Below are positions 1 through 62,292 of a stretch of 64,000 nt of DNA, one piece after another. Under the pieces are notes generated by a model, which did no database searches, was not told the DNA's origin, and saw only the letters and a list, made by a program, of their open reading frames with translations. The first letter of the stretch is position 1. Every line of letters begins with the position of its first letter. Both the position numbers and the translations under genes were made by a program. This stretch comes from an archaeon (lineage in GTDB: Archaea > Nanobdellota > Nanobdellia > Pacearchaeales > GW2011-AR1), in assembly GCA_030605415.1 (NCBI GenBank), contig JAUWIJ010000003.1, positions 4,441 through 68,440 of the forward strand, written 5' to 3'.

Positions 1-1074
1 TTGAATTTGTGAGGGTACCAGCGAAGCGTCCGACCACCGACCGCCCGACGAAGTGTAGACAGAATCTACACTGAGCGATTCCTCAGTCAAAGTTCCAGTC
101 TTATCCGTACAAATCACCGTCGCTCGACCCAAAGTCTCCGCCGCAGGCAGTCGCCGAATTAAAGTATTAACCTTATGCATCTGCTTAATCGCAACCGCCA
201 GACTAATCACAATAATCGCAGGAAGCGCAGAAGGAATAGCCGCAATAGCCAAACTAACAGAAACCAAAAACATCTCAAGCACCCCAATCCCAGAATAAAC
301 CCCAATCCCAAAAGCAAAAGCAACTATCACCAAAATCGCAATCGAGATATTTCTGGAAAAAATATTTATCTTCTTCTCGAGTGGCATAATCTCATCCTCG
401 GTTTTCTGAACTAATTCAGCCAATTTCCCAAATTCAGTTCTGTGTCCAGTTTCAACAACAACGGCCGTAGATTTTCCTCTGGCAATAGATGTCCCGGCAT
501 AAATCATATTTTTCCTGTCCGCCAAAACCACATCACTCTTCAAAGTTCCAGTCAACTTATCAACCGGAAAACTTTCTCCACTTAAAACAGCCTCGTTAAC
601 TTGTAAATTTTCCAAACTCAAAATTCGGCAGTCCGCCAAAACCTTATCGCCAACATTCAGAAAAATAATATCACCCGGAACCAACAACCCAGAATCAATT
701 TCCATCTGAACTCCGTCTCTCAAAACCATAGCTTTATATCTTAAACTTTTTCGCAACTTTTCAATAATTTCTTCAGCCTTGTATTCTTGCACAAACCCAA
801 TCCCAGCATTCAGAAAAACAATAGCTCCAATCACAACAGCGTCAATAAAATGTCCAATCATCGCCGATATAACTGCGGCAACAATCAAAATATAAATCAA
901 CAACGAATTAAACTGTTTCAGAAAAATCATCAACAAACTCTTGCCCTTATATTTGTGAATAACATTTTTCCCAAACTTTGCAAATCTCTTTTGTACCTCA
1001 CCCTTGGTTAGCCCATTTTCAGAACTGTCCAAATTTTTTAACACCTTCTCGCGAGATTGAATATGCCAATCCAT
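1..1074 (-). CDS. P-type cation-transporting ATPase, N-terminal ~358 aa (3' part runs off the window)
   Basis: Absent from the ORF track because there is no stop in the window. Reverse translation from ATG at 1074 gives MDWHIQSREKVLKNLDSSENGLTKGEVQKRFAKFGKNV. Revcomp of 61-120 reads TVICTDKTGTLTEE, the DKTGT phosphorylation motif. The + ORFs 175..414 and 787..1011 are antisense shadows. Confidence 0.85.
   Translation of the reverse strand, partial: MDWHIQSREKVLKNLDSSENGLTKGEVQKRFAKFGKNVIHKYKGKSLLMIFLKQFNSLLIYILIVAAVISAMIGHFIDAVVIGAIVFLNAGIGFVQEYKAEEIIEKLRKSLRYKAMVLRDGVQMEIDSGLLVPGDIIFLNVGDKVLADCRILSLENLQVNEAVLSGESFPVDKLTGTLKSDVVLADRKNMIYAGTSIARGKSTAVVVETGHRTEFGKLAELVQKTEDEIMPLEKKINIFSRNISIAILVIVAFAFGIGVYSGIGVLEMFLVSVSLAIAAIPSALPAIIVISLAVAIKQMHKVNTLIRRLPAAETLGRATVICTDKTGTLTEESLSVDSVYTSSGGRWSDASLVPSQIQ
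6..52 (+). repeat. GC-rich mosaic element inside the ATPase CDS (TTTGTGAGGGTACC + CCAGCGAAGCGTCCGACCACCGACC)
   Basis: The same two modules recur at 5067, 10762 and 61839, and at 32868, 48723 and 62375. The element lies just after the DKTGT motif in the protein. Confidence 0.75.
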
Positions 1075-2033: not shown

Positions 2034-3179
2034 ATGAAGAGGAATATTATTTTAGGATTATTTTTGTTGGTGATTATTTTTGCAGAAATAATTTCTGCAG
2101 GAGGAGTGGGAATTAGCCCGGTATATTACAAAGAGTTTTTTGAGCCAAATTTAGAAAAGAATTTTACTTTCAATGCTTTTAATACAAAAGCAGAGGAGGG
2201 AGTAAATATTTATGTCAAAGGAGACCTCGCAGATTATGTTACATTAAGTAATGCGTATTTTTTGGGTGGTGGAGAATTTATAGTTACAATAAAACTGCCG
2301 ACAAAAATTGAGAAGCCAGGAACGCATGAAATAATCATAGGTGCAATAGAGGCCAAGAGCGAAATAGAAGGAGCAACTCTGGGTGGAATTGCGGCAATAC
2401 AGGGACGAATCGACATACTGGTTCCCTACCCAGGAAAATATTCCGAATCAACATTTACAATAAATAATATTAACGAAGGGGAATCAGCAACTTACGAAAT
2501 AGAAACTGAAAACTTAGGGAGCCAATATTTAGATATAAAGACCACAATTGAAGTTTATAAAAATAATATGTCAGAAAAAGTTTTGACAAAAAAACTAAAA
2601 GAAATAAATCTTAAACCAAAAGAAATCTTCAGCGTAATCGAAACAATAGATACTCGAAATCTCCCTCCCGGAGACTACCAAGCTCTCGCAATAATCGACT
2701 GGGGACAAATAGATAAAATAAATCAAACTTTCCGAATCGGAGAATTCTTAGTTGAAATTATCGACTATGATTATCAATTCGAAGAAAACAAAATCAACGA
2801 ATTCAACATAGAAATACAAAATAAATGGAACACAAAAATAGACAAAATATTCGCTACAGTATCGATAACAGATGAAGGAAGATTTCTGAATAGTTTCAAA
2901 ACAGTTTCGGTAGACACGGCACCATGGGAAACAAAAAATCTAACAAGTTATTTCGATACCACAGGACTTGAAACAAAAAGGTATACTGCGAATATCGTTT
3001 TGAATTACGGCGAAGAAATCTCAAGCAAACTAATAGCAATTTACATAAACGAATCTCCGAAAGAGAGATACGCAAAATATATTATAATAGCAACAATAAT
3101 AGCTCTAAGTATAATAGCAACATTCATCTACTTAATATTAAAAATAATAAAGCTAAGAAAAAATGCAAAGAAAAAATAA
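2034..3179 (+). CDS. secreted protein with tandem Ig-like (CARDB-like) domains and a C-terminal TM anchor
   Basis: 381 aa. It has a signal peptide, then GVGISPVYY, then NEGESATYEIETENLG-type beta-sandwich sequence. The C-terminal TM is IIIATIIALSIIATFIYLIL, followed by KLRKNAKKK. Confidence 0.5.
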   Translation: MKRNIILGLFLLVIIFAEIISAGGVGISPVYYKEFFEPNLEKNFTFNAFNTKAEEGVNIYVKGDLADYVTLSNAYFLGGGEFIVTIKLPTKIEKPGTHEIIIGAIEAKSEIEGATLGGIAAIQGRIDILVPYPGKYSESTFTINNINEGESATYEIETENLGSQYLDIKTTIEVYKNNMSEKVLTKKLKEINLKPKEIFSVIETIDTRNLPPGDYQALAIIDWGQIDKINQTFRIGEFLVEIIDYDYQFEENKINEFNIEIQNKWNTKIDKIFATVSITDEGRFLNSFKTVSVDTAPWETKNLTSYFDTTGLETKRYTANIVLNYGEEISSKLIAIYINESPKERYAKYIIIATIIALSIIATFIYLILKIIKLRKNAKKK

Positions 3180-3576: not shown

Positions 3577-3624
3577 CTAGAACTCAGACCGCTTCACTTT
3601 TAGAACTCAGAATCCCCACTCAGA
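3577..3624 (-). repeat. short AGAACTC-type element remnant
   Basis: The sequence ctagaactcagaccgcttcacttttagaactcagaatcc resembles revcomp of the Pop5 insert (cagaactcagaccgcttcgctctcagaactc). Confidence 0.6.
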
Positions 3625-3688
3625 TTAAAAGTGTTCATTTCTGTGGAGAATCGGAAAGATTAATAAATAACTAAGTTTTGTTAAAACT

Positions 3689-4961: not shown

Positions 4962-5100
4962 CCCACAAATCCCAAATTCCTCGCCAGTCCCATCCCCCGT
5001 CCCCAGCTCTGAGTTCTAAGTTCTCATCCCTGAGTCGGCGTGCCCCAACCCATTTTCCCCTTGTATCTGTGAGGGTATCTCTACGTTCTCAATTCTGAAC
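4962..5100 (+). repeat. composite GC-rich mosaic element
   Basis: It reads CACAAATCCCAAAT, then CCCCGTCCCCAGCTCTGAGTTCTAAGTTCT, then GAGTCGGCGTGCCCCAACC...TTGTATCTGTGAGGGTATC. Confidence 0.8.
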
Positions 5101-5972: not shown

Positions 5973-6175
5973 TTTAATAGATTATAATTCCGTTCAGGAG
6001 TTTAGAGAATTTCCGAAGAAATTTTCTCCACGAAACTTCTTTGAAGTTACTTTAGCTATTTTGGAGAAACCAAAATAGATTCACGAAACTTCTTTGAAGT
6101 TACTTAACGCTACTACCCGTTTCCGAGCCCCGCACCTGAAACATATAATGGATGAGAAATTTTAGTTTATAAGTT
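5973..6175 (-). promoter_or_regulatory. long structured 5' leader of rps2 with a distal TATA (TTTATAAG 6166-6173)
   Basis: There is no properly spaced TATA next to the ATG. A 26-nt direct repeat cacgaaacttctttgaagttacttta (one substitution between the copies) occurs at 6029 and 6082, each copy containing the hairpin AACTTC-TTT-GAAGTT. A 9-bp hairpin ctattttgg/ccaaaatag lies at 6056-6078. Confidence 0.4.
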
Positions 6176-6186
6176 TACCGATGACT

Positions 6187-6325
6187 CACAAATCCCAAAT
6201 CCCCGTCCCCAGTTCGGAGTTGGGAGTTTGTAGTTGATAGTTAATAGCCCCCCCGCTTCCCCGTTCCCTGCCCCCACTCCCCACCCCCAACTCCAAACTA
6301 CCAACTACGAACGCAAAAGCGTTCG
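6187..6325 (+). repeat. composite GC-rich mosaic element between rps2 and eno, overlapping the eno stop
   Basis: It contains CACAAATCCCAAATCCCCGTCCCC, GAGTTGGGAGTTTGTAGTTGATAGTT, the 28-mer AGCCCCCCCGCTTCCCCGTTCCCTGCCC (identical at 46163), CCCAACTCCAAACTACCAACTAC, and the hairpin GAACGC-AAAA-GCGTTC. Confidence 0.85.
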
Positions 6326-10689: not shown

Positions 10690-10776
10690 CTACTACCAAC
10701 TACCAGAGAGGTAAAGCCTCTCGAACTACTTAGGGTCTGCCCCAACCTGTCTTTCTTTTGTATTTGTGAGGGTACC
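10690..10776 (+). repeat. GC-rich mosaic element between rrp4 and rrp41
   Basis: It contains CTACTACCAACTACC, the hairpin GAGAGG-TAAAG-CCTCTC, and GGGTCTGCCCCAACC...TTTGTATTTGTGAGGGTACC. Confidence 0.8.
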
Positions 10777-13858: not shown

Positions 13859-14233
13859 CTATCTTTTCAACCCCTTCAATGTCCCGCTAACTTTTTCAAT
13901 CTTAATTCCCGCCAAAGCCAACGCCGCTCTAACATCCTCCAACGATTTCACTAAACAACTACCAATAATAAATTCCCGTTCCCCCTCCCCCGTCCCCCTC
14001 TGAAATCTGAGTTCTGAGTTCTGAGTTCTGGACTTCCCGTCCACCGAGTTCTGAGAGCGAAGCGGTCTGAGTTCTGAGTTCTGAATTTCCATATAAGCCG
14101 ACTTCGCAAATCCAAGTGTTCCAACATATTCCAAAATCGCAGATTCAACTTTCGCGTTACTTGCTTTAACTAAAAAATACCTTCTCTTATCTCGAGCCGA
14201 CGGTTTAAGTTTTAGCTTTTTTATTTTTACCAT
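13859..14233 (-). CDS. RNase P protein component 2 (Pop5/Rnp2) interrupted in frame by a ~37-codon repeat element
   Basis: LKPSARDKRRYFLVK is the Pop5 N-terminus, and the gene holds its superoperon position next to psmA. The ATG is at 14233 (the track start 14260 is GTG). Confidence 0.7.
   Translation of the reverse strand: MVKIKKLKLKPSARDKRRYFLVKASNAKVESAILEYVGTLGFAKSAYMEIQNSELRPLRSQNSVDGKSRTQNSELRFQRGTGEGEREFIIGSCLVKSLEDVRAALALAGIKIEKVSGTLKGLKR
13977..14088 (+). repeat. GAGTTCT-type element inside the Pop5 CDS
   Basis: It shares an identical 31-mer (ccccgtccccctctgaaatctgagttctgag) and an identical 28-mer (ctggacttcccgtccaccgagttctgag) with revcomp of intergenic 17367-17490. Confidence 0.9.
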
Positions 14234-16991
14234 GTTTCTTATTTTTTCTTTTTTTACCACGTTTTTTCTTAGACTTCAAAGTTTTTAACTTCTTCCTATT
14301 TAATCTAATAACAACTGCAAGAACCGAAATCAAAACAATAACCAAAATAACTACCACCCAAAAATAATCTTTAACCACTAAAATTTCAGTTTCAACAATT
14401 CCACTATCCATTGTGTGATAAATATTTTCTTCTTTATTACTCTCATCAACCTCAACCTCTTTTACAATCTCTTCAAAAATTCGCATCACGCTAATATTCG
14501 CCTTGCTATATTTAATTTCATTTAGCTTAACATAAAAATCATAATAGTTTGGAGAACTTAAATTTAATTTTATTTCTTCGCCAACGGTCAGTGTCAAATA
14601 AATAGGTTCACTCTCAACTATAATATCGACTGAGTTAGATTCAACTTTTAAAACTTTCAACGAATGTTTACCTGAAGCCAATCCAAAACTAATCTTATCT
14701 TTTGCTTTCAATTTAACAGAGTAGCCAGAAATCATTTCTGAATTATCTACAGAATATATTTTTATGCTAGAGCTACCTCCACTTGAACTTGAAATAACAG
14801 GAGGTGAATTTATTGTAAATGAAATTGTGGAAGAATTCCCAACGTTCCCTGCACCGTCAGTGCAATTGACATAAGCATTATGGGTCGCAACATTTAGACC
14901 GGAAACAGAAATAAGATTTGTGCCGGAATTGTTAATAGCACTTGTATTCAAAGTTCCATTGCCATCAACATAAACACTGCAATTAGAAACAGGATTTGAA
15001 TCGGAAACATCAAAGCTAAATTCAATAGTGGTAGATGTTCCATCCGCAACCCCAGACAAATTAATTAGCGGTGGCGTTGTATCATAAATTATTGTAAAAT
15101 TATTTTCTGCCGAAGAATTATAAGAGGCATTATTAATCCCCAAACAATTCCAGAGATAATTATCTTCTTCTATAAAAGTCCAGTTAAAAATCGTCCCGTT
15201 ACTTATTCCGTTAATATTTTTAGTAGTTGTATTAATTAAATCCCCCGTCGAATTCCACAAATAAAAAGTTACATTAGAAAGATTATGAATTCCCTCAGAA
15301 GTCAAGTTACAAACAAAATCAGTTTCATTAACATTGGTATAACTGTTATTTTCTGGACTAGTCAGATTTACAACAACACCCCCAATGGTTAAAGTATAAT
15401 TAGCCGCATTTCCCAAATTCCCCTCGACATCACTAACTAAACAATTCCATAAATAAGTTCCTTCGGACATATTATCCAAATCAAAACTCGTTTCATTCGC
15501 AGTCCCAGTCAAATTATTCGTTGCATTACAATAAAGCCCCATAGAATTCCAAACCTTCAAGGTTACATTCGCTAACTGCCAATCCGTCGCATTGCAAATA
15601 AAAGTCTGATTAACGGTTAAATTAATATGATTATCAGTAGGAGAAACTAAGATTACATTTGGAGCATCAATATCTAAAGAAAGAATGGCAGAATATACAT
15701 CTATCCGGGAAAAGTTGTTAGAGCTTTCGTTAAATTGTACTCCTGTGTCATATAATACATCTTCAACTTCGGATGGGGTTTTTGTTTGTCCGCTCAAACT
15801 TAAATATTGATTAATTATTGCAATTGCTCCAGCAACCATTGGAGTTGCCATTGAAGTGCCGGACATCTCCGAATAATTTTTAGAATATCCCCAACCATTT
15901 AGATAGACATCTCCAAGGGGCATTGTTGAGTTAATTAAATGACCAGGAGCAAATAATTTTGTTATAAAATTCCTATTAGAAAAATCTGAGATATTATCAT
16001 CTTTATTAACCGAAGAAATAGGTGTCGCGTTTTGAATACACGCAGGAGAAGAAATAGCACTATCCCAATTTTCATTTCCTGTTGCAACTACCACTGAAAT
16101 ATTATTAACGACCGCATTATTGATTCTTTCTGTAAAAAGATCTCTGCCACAACCAGCAGAAATATCAAATGTATCACAATATGAAGGATATCCCTCAATA
16201 GTTTCATTACACCCAAGACTCATACTTATAACAGAAATATTATTAATAAGTGAATTATTTATACACCAATCGATTCCAGCTATCACATCACTTGTATAGC
16301 CATTTCCATTAACATCTAAAACCTTAATTCCAATGAGATTCGTTTCTCTGGCAATTCCGAAGATTTCTCCACTAGCCCCGACGATTCCTGCAACATGAGT
16401 GCCATGTCCGTTATCATCAGTAATAGAACAATTTTCAACACACCCCTCTCCAGAAATACAATCAATATTACAAGTTAAATTCTTTTCAGTCAAATCTGGA
16501 TGTGAAAAATCAACCCCCGTATCAATTACACAAACTGTTTGAGTCACCCCAGTTAAATTTATTCCTAAAACTTTCAATGACCACGTCAAACTTGCATTTG
16601 TAATATCAATAGATTCTTTCAAAAAGGATTTGACAGGATAATCATATGAAATTTGTTTTATATTCTTTTTTTCTATTAATTTTTCAATATCTCTCTTTGT
16701 TAAATCAGCAGAAAACATTCCTTTAAATTGATGTCTTATTTTTTCTTTTCCAATTTCCTCAACTATTTTCTCTTTTAGATTATTTAGACTTAAATCTTTA
16801 AAATTTGAGACATCTTCATCCTTAACATCTTCATCCAACCTAACAATAACTCTTACTTTTTCTTCCCCAGAATTAAATTTTTCCAAAATATTTTTATCAA
16901 TTTTTCCTTCAAAATCTTTTTCAGAAAAACCAATTTCCAAACCAAATACAAAAACAAACAGAATAAGAACTATAATCAACCTTTTTTTCAT
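14205..16991 (-). CDS. subtilisin-like serine protease (S8), secreted, with a C-terminal TM anchor
   Basis: The catalytic triad contexts are VCVIDTGVDFSHPD, HGTHVAGIV and SGTSMATPMVAG. It has a signal peptide, a propeptide-like N-terminus, and a long N-x-S/T-rich repeat region. The TM is followed by a KKKRGKKRKNKK tail. Confidence 0.9.
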   Translation of the reverse strand: MKKRLIIVLILFVFVFGLEIGFSEKDFEGKIDKNILEKFNSGEEKVRVIVRLDEDVKDEDVSNFKDLSLNNLKEKIVEEIGKEKIRHQFKGMFSADLTKRDIEKLIEKKNIKQISYDYPVKSFLKESIDITNASLTWSLKVLGINLTGVTQTVCVIDTGVDFSHPDLTEKNLTCNIDCISGEGCVENCSITDDNGHGTHVAGIVGASGEIFGIARETNLIGIKVLDVNGNGYTSDVIAGIDWCINNSLINNISVISMSLGCNETIEGYPSYCDTFDISAGCGRDLFTERINNAVVNNISVVVATGNENWDSAISSPACIQNATPISSVNKDDNISDFSNRNFITKLFAPGHLINSTMPLGDVYLNGWGYSKNYSEMSGTSMATPMVAGAIAIINQYLSLSGQTKTPSEVEDVLYDTGVQFNESSNNFSRIDVYSAILSLDIDAPNVILVSPTDNHINLTVNQTFICNATDWQLANVTLKVWNSMGLYCNATNNLTGTANETSFDLDNMSEGTYLWNCLVSDVEGNLGNAANYTLTIGGVVVNLTSPENNSYTNVNETDFVCNLTSEGIHNLSNVTFYLWNSTGDLINTTTKNINGISNGTIFNWTFIEEDNYLWNCLGINNASYNSSAENNFTIIYDTTPPLINLSGVADGTSTTIEFSFDVSDSNPVSNCSVYVDGNGTLNTSAINNSGTNLISVSGLNVATHNAYVNCTDGAGNVGNSSTISFTINSPPVISSSSGGSSSIKIYSVDNSEMISGYSVKLKAKDKISFGLASGKHSLKVLKVESNSVDIIVESEPIYLTLTVGEEIKLNLSSPNYYDFYVKLNEIKYSKANISVMRIFEEIVKEVEVDESNKEENIYHTMDSGIVETEILVVKDYFWVVVILVIVLISVLAVVIRLNRKKLKTLKSKKKRGKKRKNKKHGKNKKAKT

Positions 16992-17025
16992 GTTAATAAC
17001 TGAGAAAAATTATATATAAATATTC

Positions 17026-17322
17026 TTATTTTACACCCACACATTCTCCATTAATGTATTCACATGATTCAATTTTACAATTAAACATTGCCATACAAAA
17101 TTGATTTTCAGGACATTCGGACAAATTTACAGAATAGTCATCCACTTCATTTTCTAAAACACATTTCTCTTCTCCTCCCATATTACAAGGGCAACATGTA
17201 GTTTGAATTTTCACACACTCCACCTCCTCCTCGCTATTGTACTCCCCAACAAACCAAAAAAATCCTGCGACTAATAAAATTCCCACAATGACAATTGTTC
17301 CGATTAGACCTCTTTTATTCAT
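17026..17322 (-). CDS. small Cys-rich membrane-anchored or secreted protein
   Basis: 98 aa with an N-terminal TM and 12 Cys in ~65 residues. It lies immediately upstream of the S8 protease on the same strand. Confidence 0.45.
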   Translation of the reverse strand: MNKRGLIGTIVIVGILLVAGFFWFVGEYNSEEEVECVKIQTTCCPCNMGGEEKCVLENEVDDYSVNLSECPENQFCMAMFNCKIESCEYINGECVGVK

Positions 17323-17360: not shown

Positions 17361-17676
17361 TGGACGAGAACTCAGAACTCGGTGGACGGGAAGTCCAGAT
17401 CTCAGAACTCCAACGAGAACTCAGAATTCAGATCTCAGAACTCCAACGAGAACTCAGATCTCAGAACTCAGATTTCAGAGGGGGACGGGGAGCTGGGGGC
17501 GGGGGGCACGCCCCCGGAGGGTAGGGCTTTTGGGAGTGGTGGTTCTAAGCTCTAAGAGTGAATGAAATGAACGGTCTGAGTTCTGAGTTCTAGGGAGTGG
17601 AACGACCTCTAAGAGCGAATGAAATGAGCGGTCTAAGTTCTAAGTTCTCAGTTCTGTTTTGAGCAAGAGACGAGCG
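17361..17676 (+). mobile_element. MITE-like foldback element, copy A (AGAACTC arm, GC-rich core, GAGTTCT arm)
   Basis: The ends tggacgagaactcag ... gagcaagagacgagcg match copy B at 44331-44563. The ~108-nt core 17501-17608 is near-identical to 44433-44541. No ORF. Confidence 0.65.
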
Positions 17677-17730: not shown

Positions 17731-19062
17731 ATGGTGAAAATACACACAGTTGGCGGGTTCTCGGAAGTTGGAAAAAATATGGTTGTCCTTGAGTTGGAAG
17801 AAGATGCATTTATTTTTGATGAAGGATTTTTCTTGCCGGCAATCGTATCAATGCAGGAACGAGACAAGGTTATGACCGAGCGACGATTAAAATCAATTAA
17901 GGCTGTTCCAGAAGATTCTGTAATTAATAAAATTAAACATAAAGTTAGGGCTCAGTTTATCAGTCACGCACACCTCGACCACGTCGGCGCAATTCCTTTT
18001 TTATCAGATAAATACAATGCACCGATTTATGGAACTCCGTTCACAATGCAAGTTTTAGATTCCTTATTGAACGACAACGACATCGTCCTTAAAAACAAAA
18101 CTTTTGCAATAAAGCCAAACACTACGTTTTATATTAATGGTAAAAACAGAAAATACAAAGTAGATTTTATAAACATAACCCATTCAACAGCACAGTGTCT
18201 AATGATTGCAATTCAAACACCGAAGGGAGCAATTATTTACGCAAACGATTTCAAACTCGATGACACCCCAGTTTTAGGACTAAAACCGAATTATAAGAGA
18301 CTAAGAGAAATAGCAAAAGAAGGCGTTCTGGCTTTTGTGGTAGATTCTCTCTATTCTGGCTCCGAAAGAAAAACTCCCTCTGAAAAAGTAGCAAGGGTTT
18401 TACTTGAAGAAGTTTTATTAACAATCCAGAACAGAAATGCCGGAATGATTGTAACAACATTTTCTTCCCACATTGCCAGACTGAAGTCAATTGTCGAATT
18501 TGGAAAAAAGTTAAATCGGGAAGTGGTTTTACTGGGAAGAAGTATGGACAAGTATTCAACCGCCGCAAAAAATGTAGGCATCGCACCTTTTCTAAACGAC
18601 ATAAAAATTTCAAAATACCGAAGACAAGTAGAAAAAATTTTACACAAAGTGGAAAGAAGAAGAAAGGATTATCTAATTGTTTGCACCGGGCATCAGGGCG
18701 AACCTGGTTCAATACTAGAAAGATTATCGCGACATCAACTTCCATTTAGATTAAATAGGGACGACAGCATCGTTTTTTCATCCAGCGTAATCCCCTCTCC
18801 AGTCAATATAGAACAATTTGCAAAGATGGAAGCTCGCCTTAAAAAATCCAAGCCAAGAATTTTTAGGGATGCTCATGTTTCTGGACATGGAGGCAGAGAA
18901 GACCTTCGGGATATTATGCAAATAATAAATCCTCAACATGTTATCCCATCTCATGGCGGACTCGACAAAACACGACCAATGGCAGACTTGGTAAAAGAAT
19001 TGGGCTACAAGCTCGGAAAGCAATGCCACCTAATGCAAGATGGAGGCATTCTAAAATTGTAG
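17731..19062 (+). CDS. rnj: archaeal RNase J (metallo-beta-lactamase / beta-CASP ribonuclease)
   Basis: The motif is SHAHLDHVGAIPFL, with beta-CASP region motifs (HVSGHGGREDL). The 443-aa size is typical of aRNase J. Confidence 0.8.
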   Translation: MVKIHTVGGFSEVGKNMVVLELEEDAFIFDEGFFLPAIVSMQERDKVMTERRLKSIKAVPEDSVINKIKHKVRAQFISHAHLDHVGAIPFLSDKYNAPIYGTPFTMQVLDSLLNDNDIVLKNKTFAIKPNTTFYINGKNRKYKVDFINITHSTAQCLMIAIQTPKGAIIYANDFKLDDTPVLGLKPNYKRLREIAKEGVLAFVVDSLYSGSERKTPSEKVARVLLEEVLLTIQNRNAGMIVTTFSSHIARLKSIVEFGKKLNREVVLLGRSMDKYSTAAKNVGIAPFLNDIKISKYRRQVEKILHKVERRRKDYLIVCTGHQGEPGSILERLSRHQLPFRLNRDDSIVFSSSVIPSPVNIEQFAKMEARLKKSKPRIFRDAHVSGHGGREDLRDIMQIINPQHVIPSHGGLDKTRPMADLVKELGYKLGKQCHLMQDGGILKL

Positions 19063-19436: not shown

Positions 19437-20113
19437 TGGAAATTTACCAGCCCGCCGAAGATTCATATTTTTTCGCAGATTTTTTAAAAAAATACCTCAC
19501 TACCAACTACTCACTACCAACTACTCACTATTTGGATATGGGCTCTGGCTCTGGAATTCTATCTGAAACTGCATCAAAATTTTTAGACAAAAAAAACATT
19601 TTAGCCACCGATATAAATTCATCTGCAATAAAATTATTAAAACAAAAAAAGATTAATGCAATCAAAACAAATCTTTTTGAAATTTTTGGTAGAACAAGTC
19701 GTGCTTCACAAATCCCAAATCCCAAATCCCTCGTCGCTCCCCTCCCCTGCCCCACAAATCCCAAATACCAAATACCAAATCCCTCGCTTGCAAATCCCAA
19801 ATCCCGAATACCAAATCCCTCGTCTATGTCCCAAATCCCTCGTTTCGACCTAATAACTTTCAACGCACCCTATCTCCCTCTCGATTCACGCGAACCAAAA
19901 TCATCACAACTTGCAACAACTGGCGGGAAAAAAGGCGATGAAATTTCACTAGAATTTTTAAAGCAGGCAAAAAAACATCTGAACAAAAACGGCAAAATAT
20001 TTCTCCTGATTTCGAGTCTAACACCAATGGATAAAATAAAAAGGTTCAATCCGAAAATAGTTGCAAAGAAGAAAATATTTATGGAAGAGTTATTGATATT
20101 AGAGTTTAGCTAA
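19436..20113 (+). CDS. HemK/Mtq2-like SAM-dependent methyltransferase with two repeat-derived inserts
   Basis: Motif I is LDMGSGSGILS and motif IV is FNAPYLP (a variant of NPPY). Confidence 0.6.
   Translation: MEIYQPAEDSYFFADFLKKYLTTNYSLPTTHYLDMGSGSGILSETASKFLDKKNILATDINSSAIKLLKQKKINAIKTNLFEIFGRTSRASQIPNPKSLVAPLPCPTNPKYQIPNPSLANPKSRIPNPSSMSQIPRFDLITFNAPYLPLDSREPKSSQLATTGGKKGDEISLEFLKQAKKHLNKNGKIFLLISSLTPMDKIKRFNPKIVAKKKIFMEELLILEFS
19498..19530 (+). repeat. (CACTACCAACTACT)x2 array inside the methyltransferase CDS
   Basis: Read directly. It encodes LTTNYSLPTTHY. Confidence 0.85.
19707..19842 (+). repeat. CCCAAAT-type array inside the methyltransferase CDS
   Basis: CACAAATCCCAAATCCCAAATCCCTCG is followed by variants. 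It encodes QIPNPKS...QIPNPS...RIPNPS between motif I and motif IV. Confidence 0.9.
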
Positions 20114-26269: not shown

Positions 26270-26283
26270 TTAGAAACACTTAG

Positions 26284-26401
26284 CTCACCAGAGATACCTA
26301 CTGGGTGAAAACCTCGGTTTTTAAAAGTTCAACCAAAACCTTTATCTCACCAGAGATACCTACTGGGTGAAAACCTCGGTTTTTAAAAGTTCAACCAAAA
26401 C
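26284..26401 (+). repeat. perfect 56-nt direct repeat x2 separated by 6 nt
   Basis: ctcaccagagatacctactgggtgaaaacctcggtttttaaaagttcaaccaaaac occurs at 26284-26339 and again at 26346-26401. Confidence 0.95.
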
Positions 26402-26431
26402 TTTTAAAAACCAAATTCCGCCCATATATCT

Positions 26432-40415: not shown

Positions 40416-40943
40416 TCAAAATATTCTCACAATCCAATTCGGAAAAATTCCCGTATCTCCGCAATGATAAACCTTATGAAAAATCTGATTCCAAATTAAA
40501 TCAACTTTCATTCTATCTTTAATCCAATTATTTTCATTTGTCCATGCTAACTGCGGTGGCTTAAACCTCGTCGGTTTAACTCCAAAACACTCTTCAAAAA
40601 TCTCAACTCCCTCGTCCAAATATTCAAAATCTCGAACAATTCCAAATTCTTCAAACGAATGATAAACCCCATGCATCGCCAATTTTTTATCCCAACTACC
40701 AACTCCCAACTCCGAACCAGATAAAGAAGCTCTCCTCTTTATCTCCTCACACCATTCTCTATCAATCGACACATTTTCAAACTTCGGAATCACATAATAA
40801 ACGTCCGCCCAATCTAATAACTTTTCCTCGCAAAAAATTTCTGGCGAAACATCGTCAAGATGGCTCGGCAAAACCAATCGAACAAAAAATAAACAAATTA
40901 TACACCCAACAAACCCAATCGCAAAATACTGCCAAACCTTCAT
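40416..40943 (-). CDS. DUF2334-like (polysaccharide deacetylase-like) membrane-anchored protein
   Basis: It has an N-terminal TM, LAMHGVYHSFEEFG, and a small repeat-derived insert. The family assignment is tentative. Confidence 0.4.
   Translation of the reverse strand: MKVWQYFAIGFVGCIICLFFVRLVLPSHLDDVSPEIFCEEKLLDWADVYYVIPKFENVSIDREWCEEIKRRASLSGSELGVGSWDKKLAMHGVYHSFEEFGIVRDFEYLDEGVEIFEECFGVKPTRFKPPQLAWTNENNWIKDRMKVDLIWNQIFHKVYHCGDTGIFPNWIVRIF
40691..40718 (+). repeat. CCCAACT/ACTACCA heptamer patch inside the CDS
   Basis: cccaactaccaactcccaactccgaacc encodes SGSELGVGSW. Confidence 0.75.
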
Positions 40944-44330: not shown

Positions 44331-44563
44331 TGGCGAGAACTCAGAACTCGACGAGAACTCAGATCTTAGAACTCAGATCTCAGAACTCAGAGGGGGCAAC
44401 CGACGAGGACAGGGATAGGAGAAGCGGGAACGGGGGGGCACACCCCCAGGGGTAGGGCTTTTGGGAGTGGTAATTCTAAGCTCTAAGAGTGAATGAAATG
44501 AACGGTCTCAGTTCTAAGTTCTATAGAGAGTGAAACGACCTGAGTTCTGGGAGCAAAGCGACC
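44331..44563 (+). mobile_element. MITE-like foldback element, copy B
   Basis: It has the same termini and ~108-nt core as 17361-17676. Arms of AGAACTC (left) and GAGTTCT (right) form long imperfect inverted repeats. Confidence 0.65.
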
Positions 44564-46085: not shown

Positions 46086-46250
46086 TTACCCTCACCCCCG
46101 CTTCCCAGTTTGTAGTTGGTAGTCTCCCCTCGCCAGTCAGGAGTTTGGAGTCAGGAATTAGTAGCCCCCCCGCTTCCCCGTTCCCTGCCCAACTCCCAAC
46201 CCCAAACTCCCAACTCCCAACTATCAGCGAAGCTGATAAACCTCTTCGAT
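46086..46250 (+). repeat. composite GC-rich mosaic element downstream of mcm
   Basis: It contains an inverted TACCCTCAC, GTTTGTAGTTGGTAGTC, the shared 28-mer AGCCCCCCCGCTTCCCCGTTCCCTGCCC, (CCCAACT)n, and the hairpin TATCAGC-GAA-GCTGATA. Confidence 0.85.
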
Positions 46251-54924: not shown

Positions 54925-57261
54925 TTACTTCTTCGCCTCTTCCTCAACTTCCTTAATCGTCGCCACATCTCCGACTCCCCTATCACTTCTCAGTTGAATA
55001 ATACGAGGAAATCTCAAAGCATAACCCGAAGAATAAGTCGGCGACTTTTGAATGTTCTGATATTGAACCGTAATAACAATCTCGGGCTTAACTTTAATTC
55101 TCCGTCCTTTAGTTTCAATCAACAACTTTTCTAACATGTCTGTCATCTCAACAAAACTCAAACCCTGCTCTGGCAATTCCTTCAGCCCCGTCGACACTTT
55201 CCCAACTCCAAGCAACTCGTCATTGCCATGCGATATTTTTATATTCTCAATCTCCTCTAAAACTTCTGGTACCTTCTTCAAGCACCTTCCAAAATGAAAC
55301 TTATCTTTATAAATTTTAAATTTTGCATTCAATCCCTTCGCATTTCTTTCTCCCGCCTCAAATGCAATAATAGGATCATTTCGAGAATGAATTACAATAA
55401 AATTATCACAGTGAGATTTAATCTTTTCAAAATCATAAAGACCAGCCTCATAAAACCCATGTGTATTTTTCTCTCGACTTTTCTTAATATCAGTAGGGTT
55501 ATTCGTCCCAATCAAAATTACTTTTTTAATTCGTCTCCCTTTAGATAACCTTTCCAGCCACCTCATAATCGCAACTCCTCCTCGAGAATGCCCAACTAAA
55601 ACACTATTTTCATTAGGATTAATCTTATCCAATTCCTCAAGCCACTCGCTTAAAACAGGATCATTAGTTTTTGGCAAATCTGGAGCAACAAATTCAAAAC
55701 CTTTCTTCTTGACTTCTTTACCAAGCCAAGGATACCATGCATCATTTGATGTCATCTTTTTTCCATGCATAAAAACAACATTATCTAAATTGTTTGCCGA
55801 AGGCAACTCTCCTTCGAACCCCGAACCCCGAACCCCGAATTCCGAATTCCGACACGCAACATCAAACGAAGTCAACCACCCCGCTCGCTTTCCAGTTCCC
55901 CATTCAGCACCGGTAATTACCAAATCGAAATCTTTATCTTCAGGTTTCAGTTTAACAGCATATCCAATCCGAGCCCCCGGTTTATATGGCGCCTCCAAAC
56001 TTTTCCCCATCAAACCTTCCTGATTATCATTCAATGCCTTCTCATAAAATTTCTCAACCACTTTCCCATCATCAGTAATAATTTGTTTCGCCAGAACAAT
56101 CTTAAATTTTTTCTCCTGCACAATTCGTTCAATCAAATGTCGTCTCTCGGCAAACGGCGTTGCAATCAAACTATTCCCATCATAATAAACAATGTCAAAA
56201 ACAACTAACTCAATCGGCAACGACTTCCTCATTTCAGCAATTCCATATTTCCGCCGAATCCTCTGACTAATCGCCTGAAAGTCCGTATACTTTTTCGTCA
56301 TCGCATACCCTTCTTGGGTCTTACCAGCAGGTGCAAACCCAACCGCTTCAGCGTCGAGAATAAAACTATTCCCCTTAACATGATTTTCAACATACTCAAC
56401 AATTTCAGGAAATTGCGTCGTCACCTCTTCCAGTCGTCGGGTAAAAATTTTAATCCTTCCATCGCTTTCCTTATTAATCATAACCCTAAATCCATCATAC
56501 TTGTATTCAAATGCCGCGGGGCGACCGACAATTTTAAACGCATCTTCAACGTCCTTCGCCTTCGGAAACAACATAACTTTTATGGGTTTCCCCGGCTCCA
56601 ATTTAATTTTCTCCAACGAATCATCACACGCTCTCTCAAAAACCTCAGCAAAATCCGTAGCCCTGTCATACGCCTTCTGAACTTCTTTAACACAAGTCTT
56701 TTTATCTTCCAAATTTTTCGGCTTAAAACAATACATAGCAATCGCATCCCTCAAAATACCAGACCCAACACCAATTTTCAAATCACCCAAAACAGTCCGC
56801 ACAATATACCTTGCCTCTTTCGGCGTCGCTGAGTGCAACAAATCAACAATAAACCCAACCTTCAAATCAACCGTTCCATTTCCCTCAATCGTCGGCAACT
56901 TCCGTAAATTATCCATAACTTTCTCAACACTTAACTTTTCAGAAAACAAAGCCGTCTGCGTTTTCCTTTTCTTTAAAATTGATTCTGCAACTTTTCCTAA
57001 ATCTCCAAGTTTTTTAAACTCATCAACAACTTCTGCATCATTAATTCCAGCCGCTCTCCCAATTGCCCGAATCACCAACTGATGCGAAATTCCCAATTCT
57101 CGATTATCATAATCCGCAAACAACCGACCCTGCAATAAATAAATCAACTCAGGTTTATCCTTAATATTCCCCAGAAAACTCGCAAGTATATCCGTCTTTT
57201 CCAAGCCCTTCGACGTCGATTCCAACGCTTCATAAATTTCACATATCTTCGAATAGTCCAT
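54925..57261 (-). CDS. lig: ATP-dependent DNA ligase carrying an inserted alpha/beta-hydrolase domain
   Basis: It has a DBD N-terminus, the adenylation motif EYKYDGFR, EGLMGK, and the OB domain and motif VI (YALRFPRIIQLRSDR). It is 778 aa, versus roughly 550-600 aa for typical archaeal ligases. Confidence 0.9.
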   Translation of the reverse strand: MDYSKICEIYEALESTSKGLEKTDILASFLGNIKDKPELIYLLQGRLFADYDNRELGISHQLVIRAIGRAAGINDAEVVDEFKKLGDLGKVAESILKKRKTQTALFSEKLSVEKVMDNLRKLPTIEGNGTVDLKVGFIVDLLHSATPKEARYIVRTVLGDLKIGVGSGILRDAIAMYCFKPKNLEDKKTCVKEVQKAYDRATDFAEVFERACDDSLEKIKLEPGKPIKVMLFPKAKDVEDAFKIVGRPAAFEYKYDGFRVMINKESDGRIKIFTRRLEEVTTQFPEIVEYVENHVKGNSFILDAEAVGFAPAGKTQEGYAMTKKYTDFQAISQRIRRKYGIAEMRKSLPIELVVFDIVYYDGNSLIATPFAERRHLIERIVQEKKFKIVLAKQIITDDGKVVEKFYEKALNDNQEGLMGKSLEAPYKPGARIGYAVKLKPEDKDFDLVITGAEWGTGKRAGWLTSFDVACRNSEFGVRGSGFEGELPSANNLDNVVFMHGKKMTSNDAWYPWLGKEVKKKGFEFVAPDLPKTNDPVLSEWLEELDKINPNENSVLVGHSRGGVAIMRWLERLSKGRRIKKVILIGTNNPTDIKKSREKNTHGFYEAGLYDFEKIKSHCDNFIVIHSRNDPIIAFEAGERNAKGLNAKFKIYKDKFHFGRCLKKVPEVLEEIENIKISHGNDELLGVGKVSTGLKELPEQGLSFVEMTDMLEKLLIETKGRRIKVKPEIVITVQYQNIQKSPTYSSGYALRFPRIIQLRSDRGVGDVATIKEVEEEAKK
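55222..55845 (-). other. ~208-aa in-frame insertion in the ligase OB domain: YdeN/RBBP9-like serine hydrolase fold
   Basis: The insertion lies between FDVACRN and DELLGVGKVSTG. It contains VVFMHG, WYPWL and the nucleophile-elbow-like VGHSRGG. Confidence 0.7.
55815..55856 (+). repeat. (CGAACCC)x3 (CGAATTC)x2 heptamer array at the N-terminal junction of the ligase insert
   Basis: Read directly. It encodes SEFGVRGSGFEG. Confidence 0.95.
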
Positions 57262-61654: not shown

Positions 61655-61788
61655 ATCAGATGCCTCCAAAGTATCGGTATTATGTTTAGCCCTGTCCATT
61701 TTCAGGACCCTGAACCTCAATAGGTGAGCTGTTACGCTTTCTTTAAATGATAGCTGCTTCTAAACTTACATCCCCAGTGTCTCAGGTT
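61655..61788 (-). rRNA. isolated 23S rRNA-like fragment (GTPase-associated centre H42-H44 and following, about E. coli 1040-1165)
   Basis: The minus strand reads GGGAUGUAAGUUUAGAAGCAGCUAUCAUUUAAAGAAAGCGUAACAGCUCACC...GGGCUAAACAUAAUACCGAUACUUUGGAGG. From memory, the E. coli sequence is GGAUGUUGGCUUAGAAGCAGCCAUCAUUUAAAGAAAGCGUAAUAGCUCAC...GGGGCUAAACCAUGCACCGAAGCUGCGG. There is no flanking rRNA sequence. Confidence 0.7.
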
Positions 61789-61811
61789 CAAATCAATGAG
61801 CCCGCCGTGAT

Positions 61812-61851
61812 GAGTCTGCCCCAACCAATTTTTTTATATTTGTGAGGGTAT
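61812..61851 (+). repeat. GTCTGCCCCAACC...TTTGTGAGGGTA module
   Basis: The sequence is gagtctgccccaaccaatttttttatatttgtgagggtat. The same ~45-nt module occurs at 5032-5079 and 10733-10776. Confidence 0.85.
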
Positions 61852-61965
61852 TTACTCAAAAAATACATCTCAAAATTATAAATAAAAAATCAGAACGCAT
61901 AATTTTTCAAAGCGTTTTCCTCGCACAGGACTATCCTGTCTTCAAATCAATGAGCCCGCTGTGAT
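61851..61965 (+). repeat. 115-nt unit, copy 1 (tRNA-Ile 3' flank plus 15 nt of the tRNA)
   Basis: tttactcaaaaaatacatctc...cacaggactatcctgtcttcaaatcaatgagcccgctgtgat is almost identical to 62083-62199. Confidence 0.9.
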
Positions 61966-62048
61966 GGGTCTGCCCCACCCAATCTTCTTTTATATTTGGT
62001 AGGGTACAGCGTGCCCCAACCTAATTTAAAAATATATTTGTGAGGGTA
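61966..62048 (+). repeat. two tandem GTCTGCCCCA(A/C)CC...TTTG(G/T)(T/G)AGGGTA modules
   Basis: They lie at 61966-62007 and 62008-62048. Confidence 0.85.
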
Positions 62049-62082
62049 TTGAACACTGTTCAAATCAATGAGCCCGCTGTGA

Positions 62083-62258: not shown

Positions 62259-62292
62259 ATATAAATATTAACAGAAAATTCAATTTATAAAA

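What the first reader, a model, noticed from the sequence alone, without database searches (positions are those of the whole stretch)
13977..14088. The same ~100-nt element sits in frame inside the RNase P Pop5 gene and, inverted, in intergenic DNA
The Pop5 CDS contains ccccgtccccctctgaaatctgagttctgag (31 nt) and ctggacttcccgtccaccgagttctgag (28 nt). Both are identical to the reverse complement of the intergenic stretch 17367-17490. In Pop5 the element adds about 37 codons (IQNSELRPLRSQNSVDGKSRTQNSELRFQRGTGEGER) without breaking the frame. This is the clearest direct evidence that these islands are dispersed copies of a mobile or recombining sequence, not gene-specific low complexity.
Basis: seen in the sequence. 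Interest (0 to 1): 0.75.

Follow-up and report, generated by a model that had tools for sequence, protein, structure and literature searches.

The report
Heptamer-repeat island inside archaeal Pop5 gene
A tiny archaeon's RNase P protein gene carries an in-frame 114-base block of 7-base repeats, and about 80 bases of it match a repeat island 3.3 kb away; such islands are common in this genome and sit in the same protein loops in related species, which resembles repeats known in bacteria but which I could not find described for these archaea.

Summary
Exact matches of 31 nt and 29 nt, containing two 20-nt spacers found nowhere else in the window, link the Pop5 insert (13975-14088) to the inverted intergenic island at 17361-17665. 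Independent assemblies reproduce both.

The gene is a true Pop5 by profile, predicted fold and synteny. The insert lies in a beta-hairpin loop, is predicted disordered, and is open in all three frames on the coding strand only.

It is one of about 20 compound heptanucleotide-repeat islands in 64 kb. Period 7 is the only enriched short period. The islands carry 11 of the window's 12 G-quadruplex motifs, and all six exact copies of CCCCGTCCCC; six of the eleven GCGAAGC mini-hairpin motifs also lie in them. Nine islands sit in frame inside seven genes, and at least two supply a stop codon.

Other Pacearchaeota carry different heptamer arrays at the same Pop5 and Cbf5 loops. Two near-identical Pop5 genes differ by exactly three units.

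My best reading is that an older AGAACTC array in a tolerant loop was enlarged by copying from the nearby island, through slippage plus template switching or gene conversion. Classical transposition seems less likely, but a 12-nt target-duplication-like repeat at the intergenic island keeps a MITE-like origin possible.

The closest known kinds are bacterial G4-forming heptameric repeats (STRR) and Rickettsia palindromic elements. I rate it a new variant of a known kind.

The parts
13859..14233 (-). Pop5 (RNase P protein component 2) gene, 124 aa, intact
   Evidence: ORF; identical to called product P0001. A profile of 23 orthologues hits PDB Pop5 3wz0_C (E=8e-5) and 2av5_A. The AF2 model's best Foldseek hits are archaeal Pop5 2czv_C, 6k0a_A, 3wz0_C and 2av5_A, prob 1.0. 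The gene sits just upstream of the proteasome alpha, SBDS, Rrp4, Rrp41 and Rrp42 genes.
13975..14088 (-). Compound heptamer island inside Pop5. It adds about 30 codons to the beta-hairpin loop (residues about 50-87).
   Evidence: The loop is 43 residues against a mode of 13 in the best 120 homologue clusters, and is the longest of them. pLDDT is below 50 for residues 56-84, between strands 48-50 and 89-94. The coding strand is open in all 3 frames; the other strand has stops in all 3.
14066..14088 (-). CAGAACT array (about 3 units) at the 5' end of the insert
   Evidence: TRF 14066-14084, period 7, 100%
14052..14067 (-). Spacer AGACCGCTTCGCTCT; its + strand contains the GCGAAGC mini-hairpin motif at 14057-14063
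   Evidence: relatives of this unit are at 3583-3600, 17550-17591, 17607-17648 and 44481-44522 (D6 and I6)
14027..14055 (-). 29-nt segment identical to the reverse complement of 17371-17399; contains the hairpin spacer TGGAC-TTCCC-GTCCA
   Evidence: (I2); local hairpin in the fold
14006..14030 (-). CAGAACT array (3.6 units)
   Evidence: TRF, period 7, 100%
13988..14018 (-). 31-nt segment identical to the reverse complement of 17460-17490; includes the CCCCGTCCCC core
13975..13998 (-). G-rich tail GGGGGACGGGGGAGGGGGAACGGG on the coding strand (canonical G-quadruplex motif)
   Evidence: a homologous G-rich right junction is present in L050 and L047 Pop5
17361..17665 (.). Intergenic compound island between the divergent promoters of the small ORF (17026..17322, -) and RNase J (17731..19062, +). 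It has an AGAACTC-array arm, a G-rich core and a GAGTTCT-array arm. It is the likely donor of the Pop5 segments.
   Evidence: Sequence. Long-range arm pairing, z=-2.67. An orthologous island is present in L047/L048, with TGGACTTCCTGTCCA and GTCCCCCTCTGAG. The spacer is about 70-78 nt in L002, L003, L007, L009, L015 and L028, against 408 nt here.
44336..44560 (.). Paralogous intergenic island in the same orientation as 17361-17665, sharing a 103-nt core at 84% identity plus the array arms
   Evidence: D11, D5, D6; alignment A5; fold. The closest relative L093 has only an 89-nt spacer there, with different heptamers.
3578..3625 (.). Small intergenic island of the same AGAACTC / GACCGCTTC family
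   Evidence: (I6)

Best explanation
The Pop5 insert is a compound heptanucleotide-repeat island: arrays of a 7-nt unit separated by short hairpin-forming spacers and a G-rich tail. It sits in a structurally tolerant beta-hairpin loop and is translated as a disordered extension.

Proposed history:
1. An AGAACTC array already existed at this loop in the lineage (shown by relatives).
2. Such arrays grow and shrink by replication slippage. Inside genes, only changes of three units (21 nt) survive (shown for a relative).
3. In the window lineage, about 80 nt were copied into the Pop5 array from the inverted island 3.3 kb away. This piece comprises the array, the TGGAC-TTCCC-GTCCA spacer, more array and the CCCCGTCCCC core. 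The copying was homology-guided template switching or gene conversion, seeded by the shared AGAACTC and G-rich stretches (inferred from distribution and identity).

Selection then acts as a filter. Only the stop-free orientation and lengths divisible by three persist inside genes, and stop-containing orientations survive only at the very 3' end of genes.

The island is probably a tolerated by-product of a genome-wide repeat-generating process, not an adaptation of Pop5.
For: Copying:
- Identical 31-nt and 29-nt stretches, with 20-nt cores unique to the two loci.
- The two loci are co-linear, with internal unit differences.

Direction of copying:
- The orthologous intergenic island in L047 already has TGGACTTCCTGTCCA and GTCCCCCTCTGAG.
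- The Pop5 genes of L047, L009 and P0004 have only plain arrays.

Recency: the intragenomic copies are 100% identical, while the window and L047 orthologues differ.

A second exchange: the core of 17361-17665 resembles the paralogue at 44336-44560 (84-90%) more than it resembles its own orthologue.

Slippage:
- P0006/L009 and P0007/L051 differ by exactly 21 nt.
- Period 7 is the only enriched short period: 12 islands against 0 for periods 4-6, 8, 10 and 11, and 0 in 20 shuffles.

Tolerant site:
- The insert lies between two strands and has low pLDDT.
- 24 of 117 homologue clusters have lengthened loops.
- Different heptamers occupy the same loop in L012, L017, L004 and L050.

Selection filter:
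- The Pop5 island is open in 3 of 3 frames on the coding strand and closed in 3 of 3 on the other.
- All nine intragenic islands are in frame.
- TAG-containing arrays sit exactly at the proteasome and enolase stop codons.

No mobilising enzyme: no transposase or reverse transcriptase was found among the roughly 40 window proteins I scanned.
Against: - The relative that is closest by flanking proteins (L002/L055/L093; RNase J 96.6%) has neither the Pop5 array nor the intergenic island. The more distant L047 has both. A purely vertical history therefore needs a loss or a lateral exchange, and the S8 protease / small-ORF region is visibly mosaic.
- A roughly 12-nt direct duplication of the target (AGTAATRTTTTT) flanks the intergenic island in L047. 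It is present in degenerate form in the window and as a single copy in empty sites. That looks like an insertion event rather than slippage.
- Recurrence at identical positions in Pop5, Cbf5 and the promoter spacer could reflect targeting rather than tolerance.
- Neither template switching nor translation of the insert has been observed directly.
Confidence: 0.5

Rival explanations
1. The islands are copies of a non-autonomous mobile element (MITE-like or RPE-like). The 230-300-nt intergenic islands would be full-length elements with inverted heptamer-array arms. The Pop5 insert would be a truncated half-element that landed in frame.
For: - Two intergenic copies 27 kb apart share similar ends (TTGG(A)CGAGAACTCAGAAC ... 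GTTCTG..GAGCAA..GCGA) and a similar core.
- Their arms are inverted and pair.
- The sites are empty in the closest relative.
- A 12-nt target-duplication-like repeat flanks the island in L047.
- In-frame insertion of palindromic repeats into genes is established for Rickettsia RPEs (PMC10969869).
Against: - The Pop5 copy has no inverted arms, no significant fold (z=-0.2 and -1.2) and no clear target duplication.
- The site already held the same heptamer in relatives.
- No target duplication is seen at the second intergenic copy.
- The islands are mosaics of modules shared with other heptamer families, so there is no single consensus element.
- The specific spacers occur only twice in about 77 kb and in no related genome among the GTDB species-representative genomes scanned.
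- No transposase was found in the window.
Confidence: 0.25
2. Gene-specific low complexity only: the Pop5 insert grew in place by slippage, and its resemblance to the intergenic island is convergent.
For: Arrays at this loop vary by slippage. Unrelated heptamers arose at the same loop in other lineages.
Against: Two non-repetitive 20-nt spacers are identical at both loci and occur nowhere else in the window. Shuffles expect 0.00.
Confidence: 0.03
3. Assembly artefact: a de Bruijn-graph path wrongly threaded intergenic-island sequence into Pop5.
For: Independent assemblies break exactly in these repeats. The first 14 nt of the Logan contig L029 follow the intergenic copy.
Against: - The ENA SPAdes contig L053 (41x coverage) independently joins the Pop5 5' half to both spacers and to the Pop5-specific junction GTCCAGAACTCAGAAC. 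The intergenic copy reads GTCCAGATCTC at that point.
- The shared exact stretches are only 29 and 31 nt.
- The frame is preserved.
Confidence: 0.04
4. The insert is functional: either a selected extension of Pop5, or a regulatory G-quadruplex or hairpin element within the mRNA, or an RNA-level intervening sequence that is removed.
For: - There is a canonical G4 motif on the coding strand.
- G-rich heptameric repeats near gene ends in bacteria form G4 structures in vitro, and their positions are suggestive of gene-regulatory effects (PMC4692102).
- The loop is lengthened in 20% of homologue clusters.
- A 6-bp helix (AAAUUC/GAAUUU) can close the insert.
Against: - The insert sequence is not conserved between species; each lineage has a different peptide.
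- The closest relative has none.
- The fold is no better than shuffles.
- An intron would not need to be open in frame, yet all nine intragenic islands are.
- I did not search for a bulge-helix-bulge motif specifically; no fold suggested one.
Confidence: 0.1

Closest known systems
G-rich heptameric simple-sequence repeats of bacteria (GGGAATC in Xanthomonas, GGGGA(C/T)T in Nostoc; Rehm et al. 2015, PMC4692102), including cyanobacterial STRR sequences
   Same: - 7-nt units in short tandem arrays of typically about 3-5 copies, dispersed over the genome.
- G-rich on one strand with G4 motifs: 11 of the window's 12 lie in islands.
- Frequent placement just after or overlapping stop codons on the sense strand.
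- Similar units: GGGATTT, GGGAATT and GGGATTA occur here and in L050.
- STRRs are even known inside a functional RNase P RNA gene (Vioque 1997, cited in PMC2858038).
   Different: - The host is a DPANN archaeon.
- The islands are compound: several unit types plus conserved spacers (CCCCGTCCCC, GCGAAGC, TGGAC-N5-GTCC).
- The Pop5 unit AGAACTC is not G-rich.
- Nine of about 20 islands lie in frame inside conserved genes, whereas the bacterial repeats are under-represented in coding DNA.
- Non-repeat spacers are copied between loci.
Rickettsia palindromic elements (RPE)
   Same: Repeats of roughly 100-150 nt are inserted in frame into unrelated housekeeping genes. They add a peptide segment at positions compatible with the protein fold (PMC10969869).
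   Different: RPEs are palindromic elements with family consensus sequences. The Pop5 insert is not palindromic. It is built of tandem heptamers, varies by unit number, and occupies a site that held an array beforehand.
[quoted passage not shown]
   Same: The intergenic islands are small and non-coding, have inverted arms, occur more than once, and one is flanked by a target-duplication-like repeat.
   Different: The arms are degenerate heptamer arrays rather than defined terminal inverted repeats. No partner transposase was found. The target duplication is unconfirmed at the second copy. The content is mosaic.
d(GCGAAGC) mini-hairpin DNA (Hirao and co-workers; review PMC13037366)
   Same: The exact 7-nt motif occurs 11 times against 3.2 expected. 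Six copies lie in islands that cover 3.2% of the window (P=4e-7), and 10 of 11 are on the + strand. It also lies next to arrays in L010 and L004.
   Different: The known roles are at phage and plasmid replication origins and promoters. A role in seeding 7-nt slippage is my speculation only.

Membership tests
Archaeal Pop5 (RNase P protein component 2, Rpp14/Pop5 family) | Sequence similarity to the family | tested here: met
   The single sequence fails Pfam and is weak against PDB. A profile of 23 orthologues hits Pop5 structures 3wz0_C (8e-5), 2av5_A (2e-4), 10cy_C and 6k0a_A.
Archaeal Pop5 (RNase P protein component 2, Rpp14/Pop5 family) | Alpha-beta sandwich fold of Pop5 | tested here: met
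   The best Foldseek hits of the AF2 model (pLDDT 88-93 in the best-modelled core blocks) are 2czv_C, 6k0a_A, 3wz0_C and 2av5_A, with prob 1.0 and TM 0.48-0.61.
Archaeal Pop5 (RNase P protein component 2, Rpp14/Pop5 family) | Conserved position in the proteasome/exosome superoperon | tested here: met
   The order Pop5, proteasome alpha, SBDS, Rrp4, Rrp41, Rrp42 is seen in the window and in relatives. That this order defines the superoperon is from my own knowledge of the archaeal literature.
Archaeal Pop5 (RNase P protein component 2, Rpp14/Pop5 family) | Assembly with Rpp30 and RNase P RNA; activity | not testable with these tools
   Needs biochemistry. No paralogue was seen in the 64 kb window; the rest of the genome was not available.
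Heptameric SSR / STRR-type repeats | Tandem arrays with a 7-nt unit, enriched over other periods | tested here: met
   12 period-7 islands against 0 for periods 4-6, 8, 10 and 11, and 0 in shuffles; TRF rows.
Heptameric SSR / STRR-type repeats | Dispersed over the genome, mostly non-coding, close to gene ends | tested here: inconclusive
   About 20 islands are dispersed across the 64 kb, and several lie at or over stop codons. However, 9 are intragenic, unlike the bacterial pattern.
Heptameric SSR / STRR-type repeats | G-rich units able to form G-quadruplexes | tested here: inconclusive
   11 of 12 G4 motifs lie in islands, including the Pop5 tail. The Pop5 and intergenic AGAACTC units themselves are not G-rich. 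G4 formation was not measured.
Rickettsia palindromic elements | Palindromic (hairpin-forming) element | tested here: not met
   The Pop5 island folds no better than shuffles on either strand (z=-1.2 and -0.2).
Rickettsia palindromic elements | In-frame insertion into conserved genes at structurally permissive sites | tested here: met
   Pop5 loop; Cbf5, enolase, methyltransferase and ligase.
MITE | Defined terminal inverted repeats | tested here: inconclusive
   The intergenic islands have inverted heptamer-array arms, but no sharp terminal inverted repeats. The Pop5 copy has one arm only.
MITE | Target-site duplication of fixed length | tested here: inconclusive
   A roughly 12-nt duplication flanks the RNase J spacer island. 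None is recognisable at 44336-44560 or at Pop5.
MITE | Related autonomous element / transposase in the genome | tested here: not met
   None among the roughly 40 window proteins scanned; the only recombinase found is a phage-integrase-family tyrosine recombinase (my reading: XerA-like). The rest of the genome was not searched.
Archaeal bulge-helix-bulge intron | BHB motif at both junctions; no need for an open frame | not tested
   No dedicated BHB search was run. Folds show only a 6-bp closing helix. The island is open in all frames and in frame, as are 8 other intragenic islands, which argues for translation.

The most novel reading that the evidence does not exclude
Pacearchaeota may have a so far undescribed, actively operating process with a built-in 7-nt step. 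It could be seeded by stable mini-hairpins such as GCGAAGC or by G-rich cores such as GGGGACGGGG. Under this reading the process repeatedly writes heptamer cassettes into the same accessible DNA sites: protein surface loops, stop codons and promoter spacers. It also shuffles the cassettes between loci. It would then act as a lineage-specific engine of protein-loop and domain-junction remodelling; one island forms the junction of a hydrolase domain inserted in DNA ligase.
Probability: 0.2. Interest if true: 0.8.

Novelty: new variant of a known kind. Interest (0 to 1): 0.55.

Why it matters
- It shows that dispersed heptameric repeat islands also exist in ultra-small DPANN archaea. Until now they were characterised in Xanthomonas and cyanobacteria.
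- In these archaea the islands enter conserved housekeeping proteins in frame: Pop5, Cbf5, enolase, DNA ligase and a methyltransferase.
- The islands recur at the same loops across species, and they exchange non-repeat segments within a genome.
- This gives a concrete, testable system for how short repeats create new protein segments in streamlined genomes.
- It explains why assemblies of these genomes break at specific points.
- It warns annotators that such genes fail domain searches: this Pop5 gets no Pfam hit, although removing the insert did not restore one.

Tried and rejected
- Pfam on Pop5, with and without the insert: no hit. A single-sequence PDB search was only marginal.
- Exact look-up of the Pop5 product given with its stop codon: not on record.
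- Scan of the GTDB species-representative genomes for the 19-nt spacer: only chance hits in GC-rich bacteria.
- Metagenome scan for the 28-mer: nothing. A degenerate 25-mer found one unrelated bacterial contig.
- Rfam found no RNA family in the islands.
- A regex extraction of Cbf5 loops failed and was replaced by global alignments.
- The search for a target duplication at the second intergenic island was inconclusive.
- L001 turned out not to be syntenic upstream of the proteasome gene.
- Literature searches found no paper on heptamer repeats in DPANN, Pacearchaeota or Woesearchaeota.
- I considered a telomere-like or reverse-transcriptase origin. I dropped it because many different units coexist and no such enzyme was seen in the window.
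Full report
**Observation**

The window is from a Pacearchaeota/Woesearchaeota-type DPANN archaeon. The 28 loci found with its proteasome alpha subunit all come from such MAGs.

ORF 13859..14233 (-) encodes 124 aa and is identical to a called product, P0001.
- The 31-mer is at 13988-14018, with its reverse complement at 17460-17490.
- The 28-mer, extendable to 29, is at 14028-14055, with its reverse complement at 17371-17398.
- The repeat finder gives inverted pairs of 55 nt at 87% and 40 nt at 98%.

The non-repetitive cores CTGGACTTCCCGTCCACCGA and CCCCGTCCCCCTCTGAAATC each occur exactly twice, even with three mismatches allowed. Shuffles give 0.00. This is therefore copying, not chance and not convergent low complexity.

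About 81 of the 114 nt of the Pop5 island are co-linear with the intergenic island, which holds two additional 33-nt internal units. The last 33 nt belong to a related module, GACCGCTTCGCTCT plus array. Its relatives lie at 3583-3600 and in both large intergenic islands.

**Is the sequence real?**

An ENA SPAdes contig (L053, 41x) and Logan contigs (L029, L054) of the same strain reproduce both loci (100% over the stretches read for L053/L054; 99.99% for L029). L053 joins the 5' half of Pop5 to both spacers and to a junction specific to the Pop5 copy: GTCCAGAACTC, where the intergenic copy has GTCCAGATCTC.

These contigs end inside the shared repeat, inside the enolase island, or inside island 62290-62415. 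The islands are genuine and they fragment assemblies.

**Is it Pop5, and where is the insert?**

- The single sequence gets no Pfam hit, with or without the insert.
- A profile of 23 syntenic orthologues hits solved Pop5 structures (3wz0_C at 8e-5, 2av5_A, 10cy_C, 6k0a_A).
- An AlphaFold model built on 76 homologues has archaeal Pop5 structures as its top Foldseek hits (prob 1.0, TM 0.48-0.61).
- The gene lies immediately upstream of the proteasome alpha, SBDS, Rrp4, Rrp41 and Rrp42 genes.
- The insert lies between strands 48-50 and 89-94. It has pLDDT below 50 for residues 56-84.
- All family-invariant residues are kept.
- Among the best 120 homologue clusters the loop has a modal length of 13. 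The window's loop, at 43, is the longest, and 24 of 117 are at least 17 long.

**The wider phenomenon**

Period-7 self-similarity marks 12 islands in the 64 kb, against none for periods 4-6, 8, 10 and 11 and none in shuffles. In 528 kb of related loci period 7 is still the commonest short period, but about ten times rarer.

By eye and by self-BLAST there are about 20 compound islands covering 2.0 kb, or 3.2% of the window. They are built from three kinds of module:
- Related heptamers: CAAATCC, CAACTAC/CAACTCC, AACCCCC, GAACACC, GAACCCC, ACCGACC and AGAACTC.
- Recurrent cores. CCCCGTCCCC has 6 exact copies, all in islands, and 12 copies with at most one mismatch against 1.25 expected.
- The heptamer GCGAAGC, known as an extraordinarily stable DNA mini-hairpin (PMC13037366). 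It occurs 11 times against 3.2 expected. Six copies are in islands (P=4e-7) and 10 of 11 are on the + strand.

Eleven of the window's 12 canonical G4 motifs lie in islands, against 0.1 expected. One is the tail of the Pop5 insert, on the coding strand. Eighteen of the 20 islands are C-rich on the + strand whatever the gene orientation. The two exceptions are the two large AGAACTC-type intergenic islands, which fits the Pop5 copy being inverted relative to them.

**Islands in genes**

Nine islands lie in frame within seven genes:

| Gene | Effect | Comparison |
|---|---|---|
| Pop5 | about +30 aa | orthologues |
| Enolase | +7 aa | relative L047 |
| Methyltransferase | +49 aa, plus an older N-terminal island | relative L047 |
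| Cbf5 | +13 aa and about +24 aa | solved Cbf5 and 28 orthologues |
| DNA ligase | island at the junction of an inserted hydrolase domain | solved ligases |
| ORF 40416..40943 | one island | — |

The C-terminus of the DNA alkylation-repair protein also runs into an island.

At the proteasome and enolase genes a TAG-containing array begins exactly at the stop codon.

The Pop5 island is open in all three frames on the coding strand and has stops in all three on the other strand. This pattern is what a frequent, unselective insertion and expansion process filtered by purifying selection would leave.

**Comparative evidence at Pop5**

Most orthologues have a short xTKDFxx loop. Others carry heptamer arrays at exactly this point, with different units:

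| Locus | Unit at the Pop5 loop |
|---|---|
| L009 | AGAACTC x4.5 |
| L047 | AGAACTC x4 |
| L012 | CGGTGGT x5 |
| L017 | GGGTTTC x4 |
| L004 | GAGGTTC-like |
| L050 | GGGAATT x3 |

Many database homologues have the matching seven-residue periodic peptides. P0006 and P0007 are about 97% identical genes that differ by exactly 21 nt, which is three units.

The same recurrence is seen at both Cbf5 sites: L056 and L067 at site 1, L061 and L087 at site 2. It is also seen at the RNase J / small-ORF promoter spacer, where L004 has an unrelated GGTTGTT/GCGAAGC island.

**History of the two loci**

The divergent promoter spacer is 70-78 nt in L002, L003, L007, L009, L015 and L028. It is 408 nt in the window and 455 nt in L047. 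The L047 island is orthologous: it has the same flanks, and it contains TGGACTTCCTGTCCA and GTCCCCCTCTGAG. The L047 Pop5 has only a plain array.

The spacers were therefore at the intergenic site first, and they are 100% identical to the Pop5 copy only within the window genome. The parsimonious reading is a recent, non-reciprocal transfer from the intergenic island into a pre-existing Pop5 array 3.3 kb away in inverted orientation, guided by the shared arrays and G-rich stretch.

A second such exchange is visible. The core of 17361-17665 is 84-90% identical to the paralogous island at 44336-44560, but unlike the core of its own orthologue.

**Caveats**

- The relative closest by flanking proteins is the MAG represented by L002, L055 and L093 (RNase J 96.6%, Rrp41 97.9%). 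It lacks the Pop5 array, the intergenic island and both Cbf5 islands, while the more distant L047 shares two of them.
- The ancestral loop in L002 cannot have arisen by deletion. Either lateral exchange or lineage sorting is involved, and the adjacent S8 protease / small-ORF segment is clearly mosaic.
- In L047 the intergenic island is flanked by a roughly 12-nt direct duplication (AGTAATATTATTTTT / AGTAATATTTTT). This sequence is single in empty sites and degenerate in the window. That is a signature of an insertion event and keeps a MITE-like origin of the large intergenic islands open.
- No such duplication is recognisable at 44336-44560 or at Pop5.
- I found no transposase or reverse transcriptase among the roughly 40 window proteins scanned; the only recombinase found is a phage-integrase-family tyrosine recombinase (my reading: XerA-like).
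- The specific spacers are absent from 13 kb of extra flanking sequence, from the GTDB species-representative genomes and from JGI metagenomes.

**Structure of the DNA and RNA**

The large intergenic islands pair their inverted arrays (z=-2.7 and -1.8). So do islands 6175-6320 (z=-4.8) and 46097-46245 (z=-2.7). The Pop5 island shows only the small TGGAC/GTCCA and GCGAAGC-type hairpins, and its fold is no better than shuffles. It is therefore not a palindromic element.

**Comparison with known systems**

- The nearest described phenomenon is the class of dispersed, G4-forming heptameric repeats in Xanthomonas and Nostoc. These show a preference for about four units and for positions within 50 bp of, or overlapping, stop codons on the sense strand (PMC4692102). 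Cyanobacterial STRR sequences belong here too and also occur inside the RNase P RNA gene (Vioque 1997, cited in PMC2858038).
- In-frame invasion of housekeeping genes parallels the Rickettsia palindromic elements (PMC10969869).
- What differs here is the archaeal DPANN host, the compound architecture with conserved cores, the high share of intragenic in-frame copies, the recurrence at identical protein loops across species, and the demonstrable copying of non-repeat spacers between loci.
- Searches of the held literature found nothing on heptamer repeats in DPANN archaea.

**Verdict**

I rate it a new variant of a known kind, of moderate interest.

Steps that are shown:
- identity and uniqueness of the shared segments;
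- Pop5 identity and the loop position of the insert;
- frame and stop-codon properties;
- enrichment of period 7;
- recurrence across species;
- variation by three units;
- orthology of the intergenic island.

Steps that are inferred:
- the direction and mechanism of copying;
- slippage as the generator of the arrays;
- translation of the insert;
- neutrality of the insert.

Noticed in passing
window 54925-57261 (-), island at 55809-55861: The ATP-dependent DNA ligase (778 aa) has an RBBP9/YdeN-type serine-hydrolase domain (aa about 494-659) inserted between the adenylation and OB domains. Alignments to solved ligases stop at aa 470 and resume at aa 683. A heptamer island (GGGGTTC/GAATTCG) forms the N-terminal junction.
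   Followed up: partly
window 61685-61795 (-), with repeats 61787-62180 and tRNA-Ile 62184-62259: An isolated 111-nt match to archaeal LSU rRNA (model positions 1157-1270, 78.6 bits) lies beside two 99-nt repeats (98% identical) and a tRNA-Ile, about 630 nt upstream of the L15e gene. No complete 23S gene is present.
   Followed up: no
window 1-17 (partial), 5038-5078, 10735-10775, 61967-62007, 62009-62049; L047 about 2960-3000: A roughly 41-nt motif, GYGTGCCCCAACC...TGTGAGGGTA, occurs at least 4-5 times and often abuts heptamer islands. It also forms the centre of the orthologous intergenic island in L047. Its nature is unknown.
   Followed up: no
L052 258-282 (JGI soil metagenome contig Ga0137410_10264746): A GC-rich bacterial contig carries GTCCCCCTCTGAATTCTGAGTTCTGAG between two genes, just past the end of a 278-aa ORF. 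This is the same core-plus-heptamer junction as in the archaeal islands. It could be chance, or a hint that the motif exists in bacteria.
   Followed up: partly
window 19488-19528 versus L047 913-950: The N-terminal methyltransferase island (CTCACTACCAACTA x2.5, encoding LTTNYSLPTTHY) is 100% identical at the DNA level between the two species, while neighbouring codons carry synonymous differences.
   Followed up: no
window 6029-6105 versus L091 10360-10515: A 55-nt tandem repeat downstream of the enolase island has extra copies in the independent ENA assembly of the same strain. This is either copy-number polymorphism or an assembly difference.
   Followed up: no
L090 1-8978 (sequence beyond the window's right end): The adjacent 9 kb (a type I restriction-modification system, QueC and small ORFs) contains no heptamer island, in contrast to the core-gene region of the window. 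It may be recently acquired DNA.
   Followed up: no
window 14205-17322 (S8 protease and small ORF) versus L002, L015 and L047: The surface protease and the small cysteine-rich membrane ORF between RNase J and Pop5 are far more divergent than their neighbours. The small ORF is 75% identical to L015 but 51% to the otherwise closest relative. This indicates a mosaic, exchanged segment.
   Followed up: partly
window 26280-26406: Two tandem copies of a 62-nt unit (96% identical) lie just downstream of the Rad50-like gene.
   Followed up: no
L004 2385-2621: At the same promoter spacer as the window's intergenic island, L004 has an unrelated island with GCGAAGC at its centre, flanked by GGTTGTT arrays. 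This reinforces the link between the mini-hairpin motif and heptamer arrays.
   Followed up: partly
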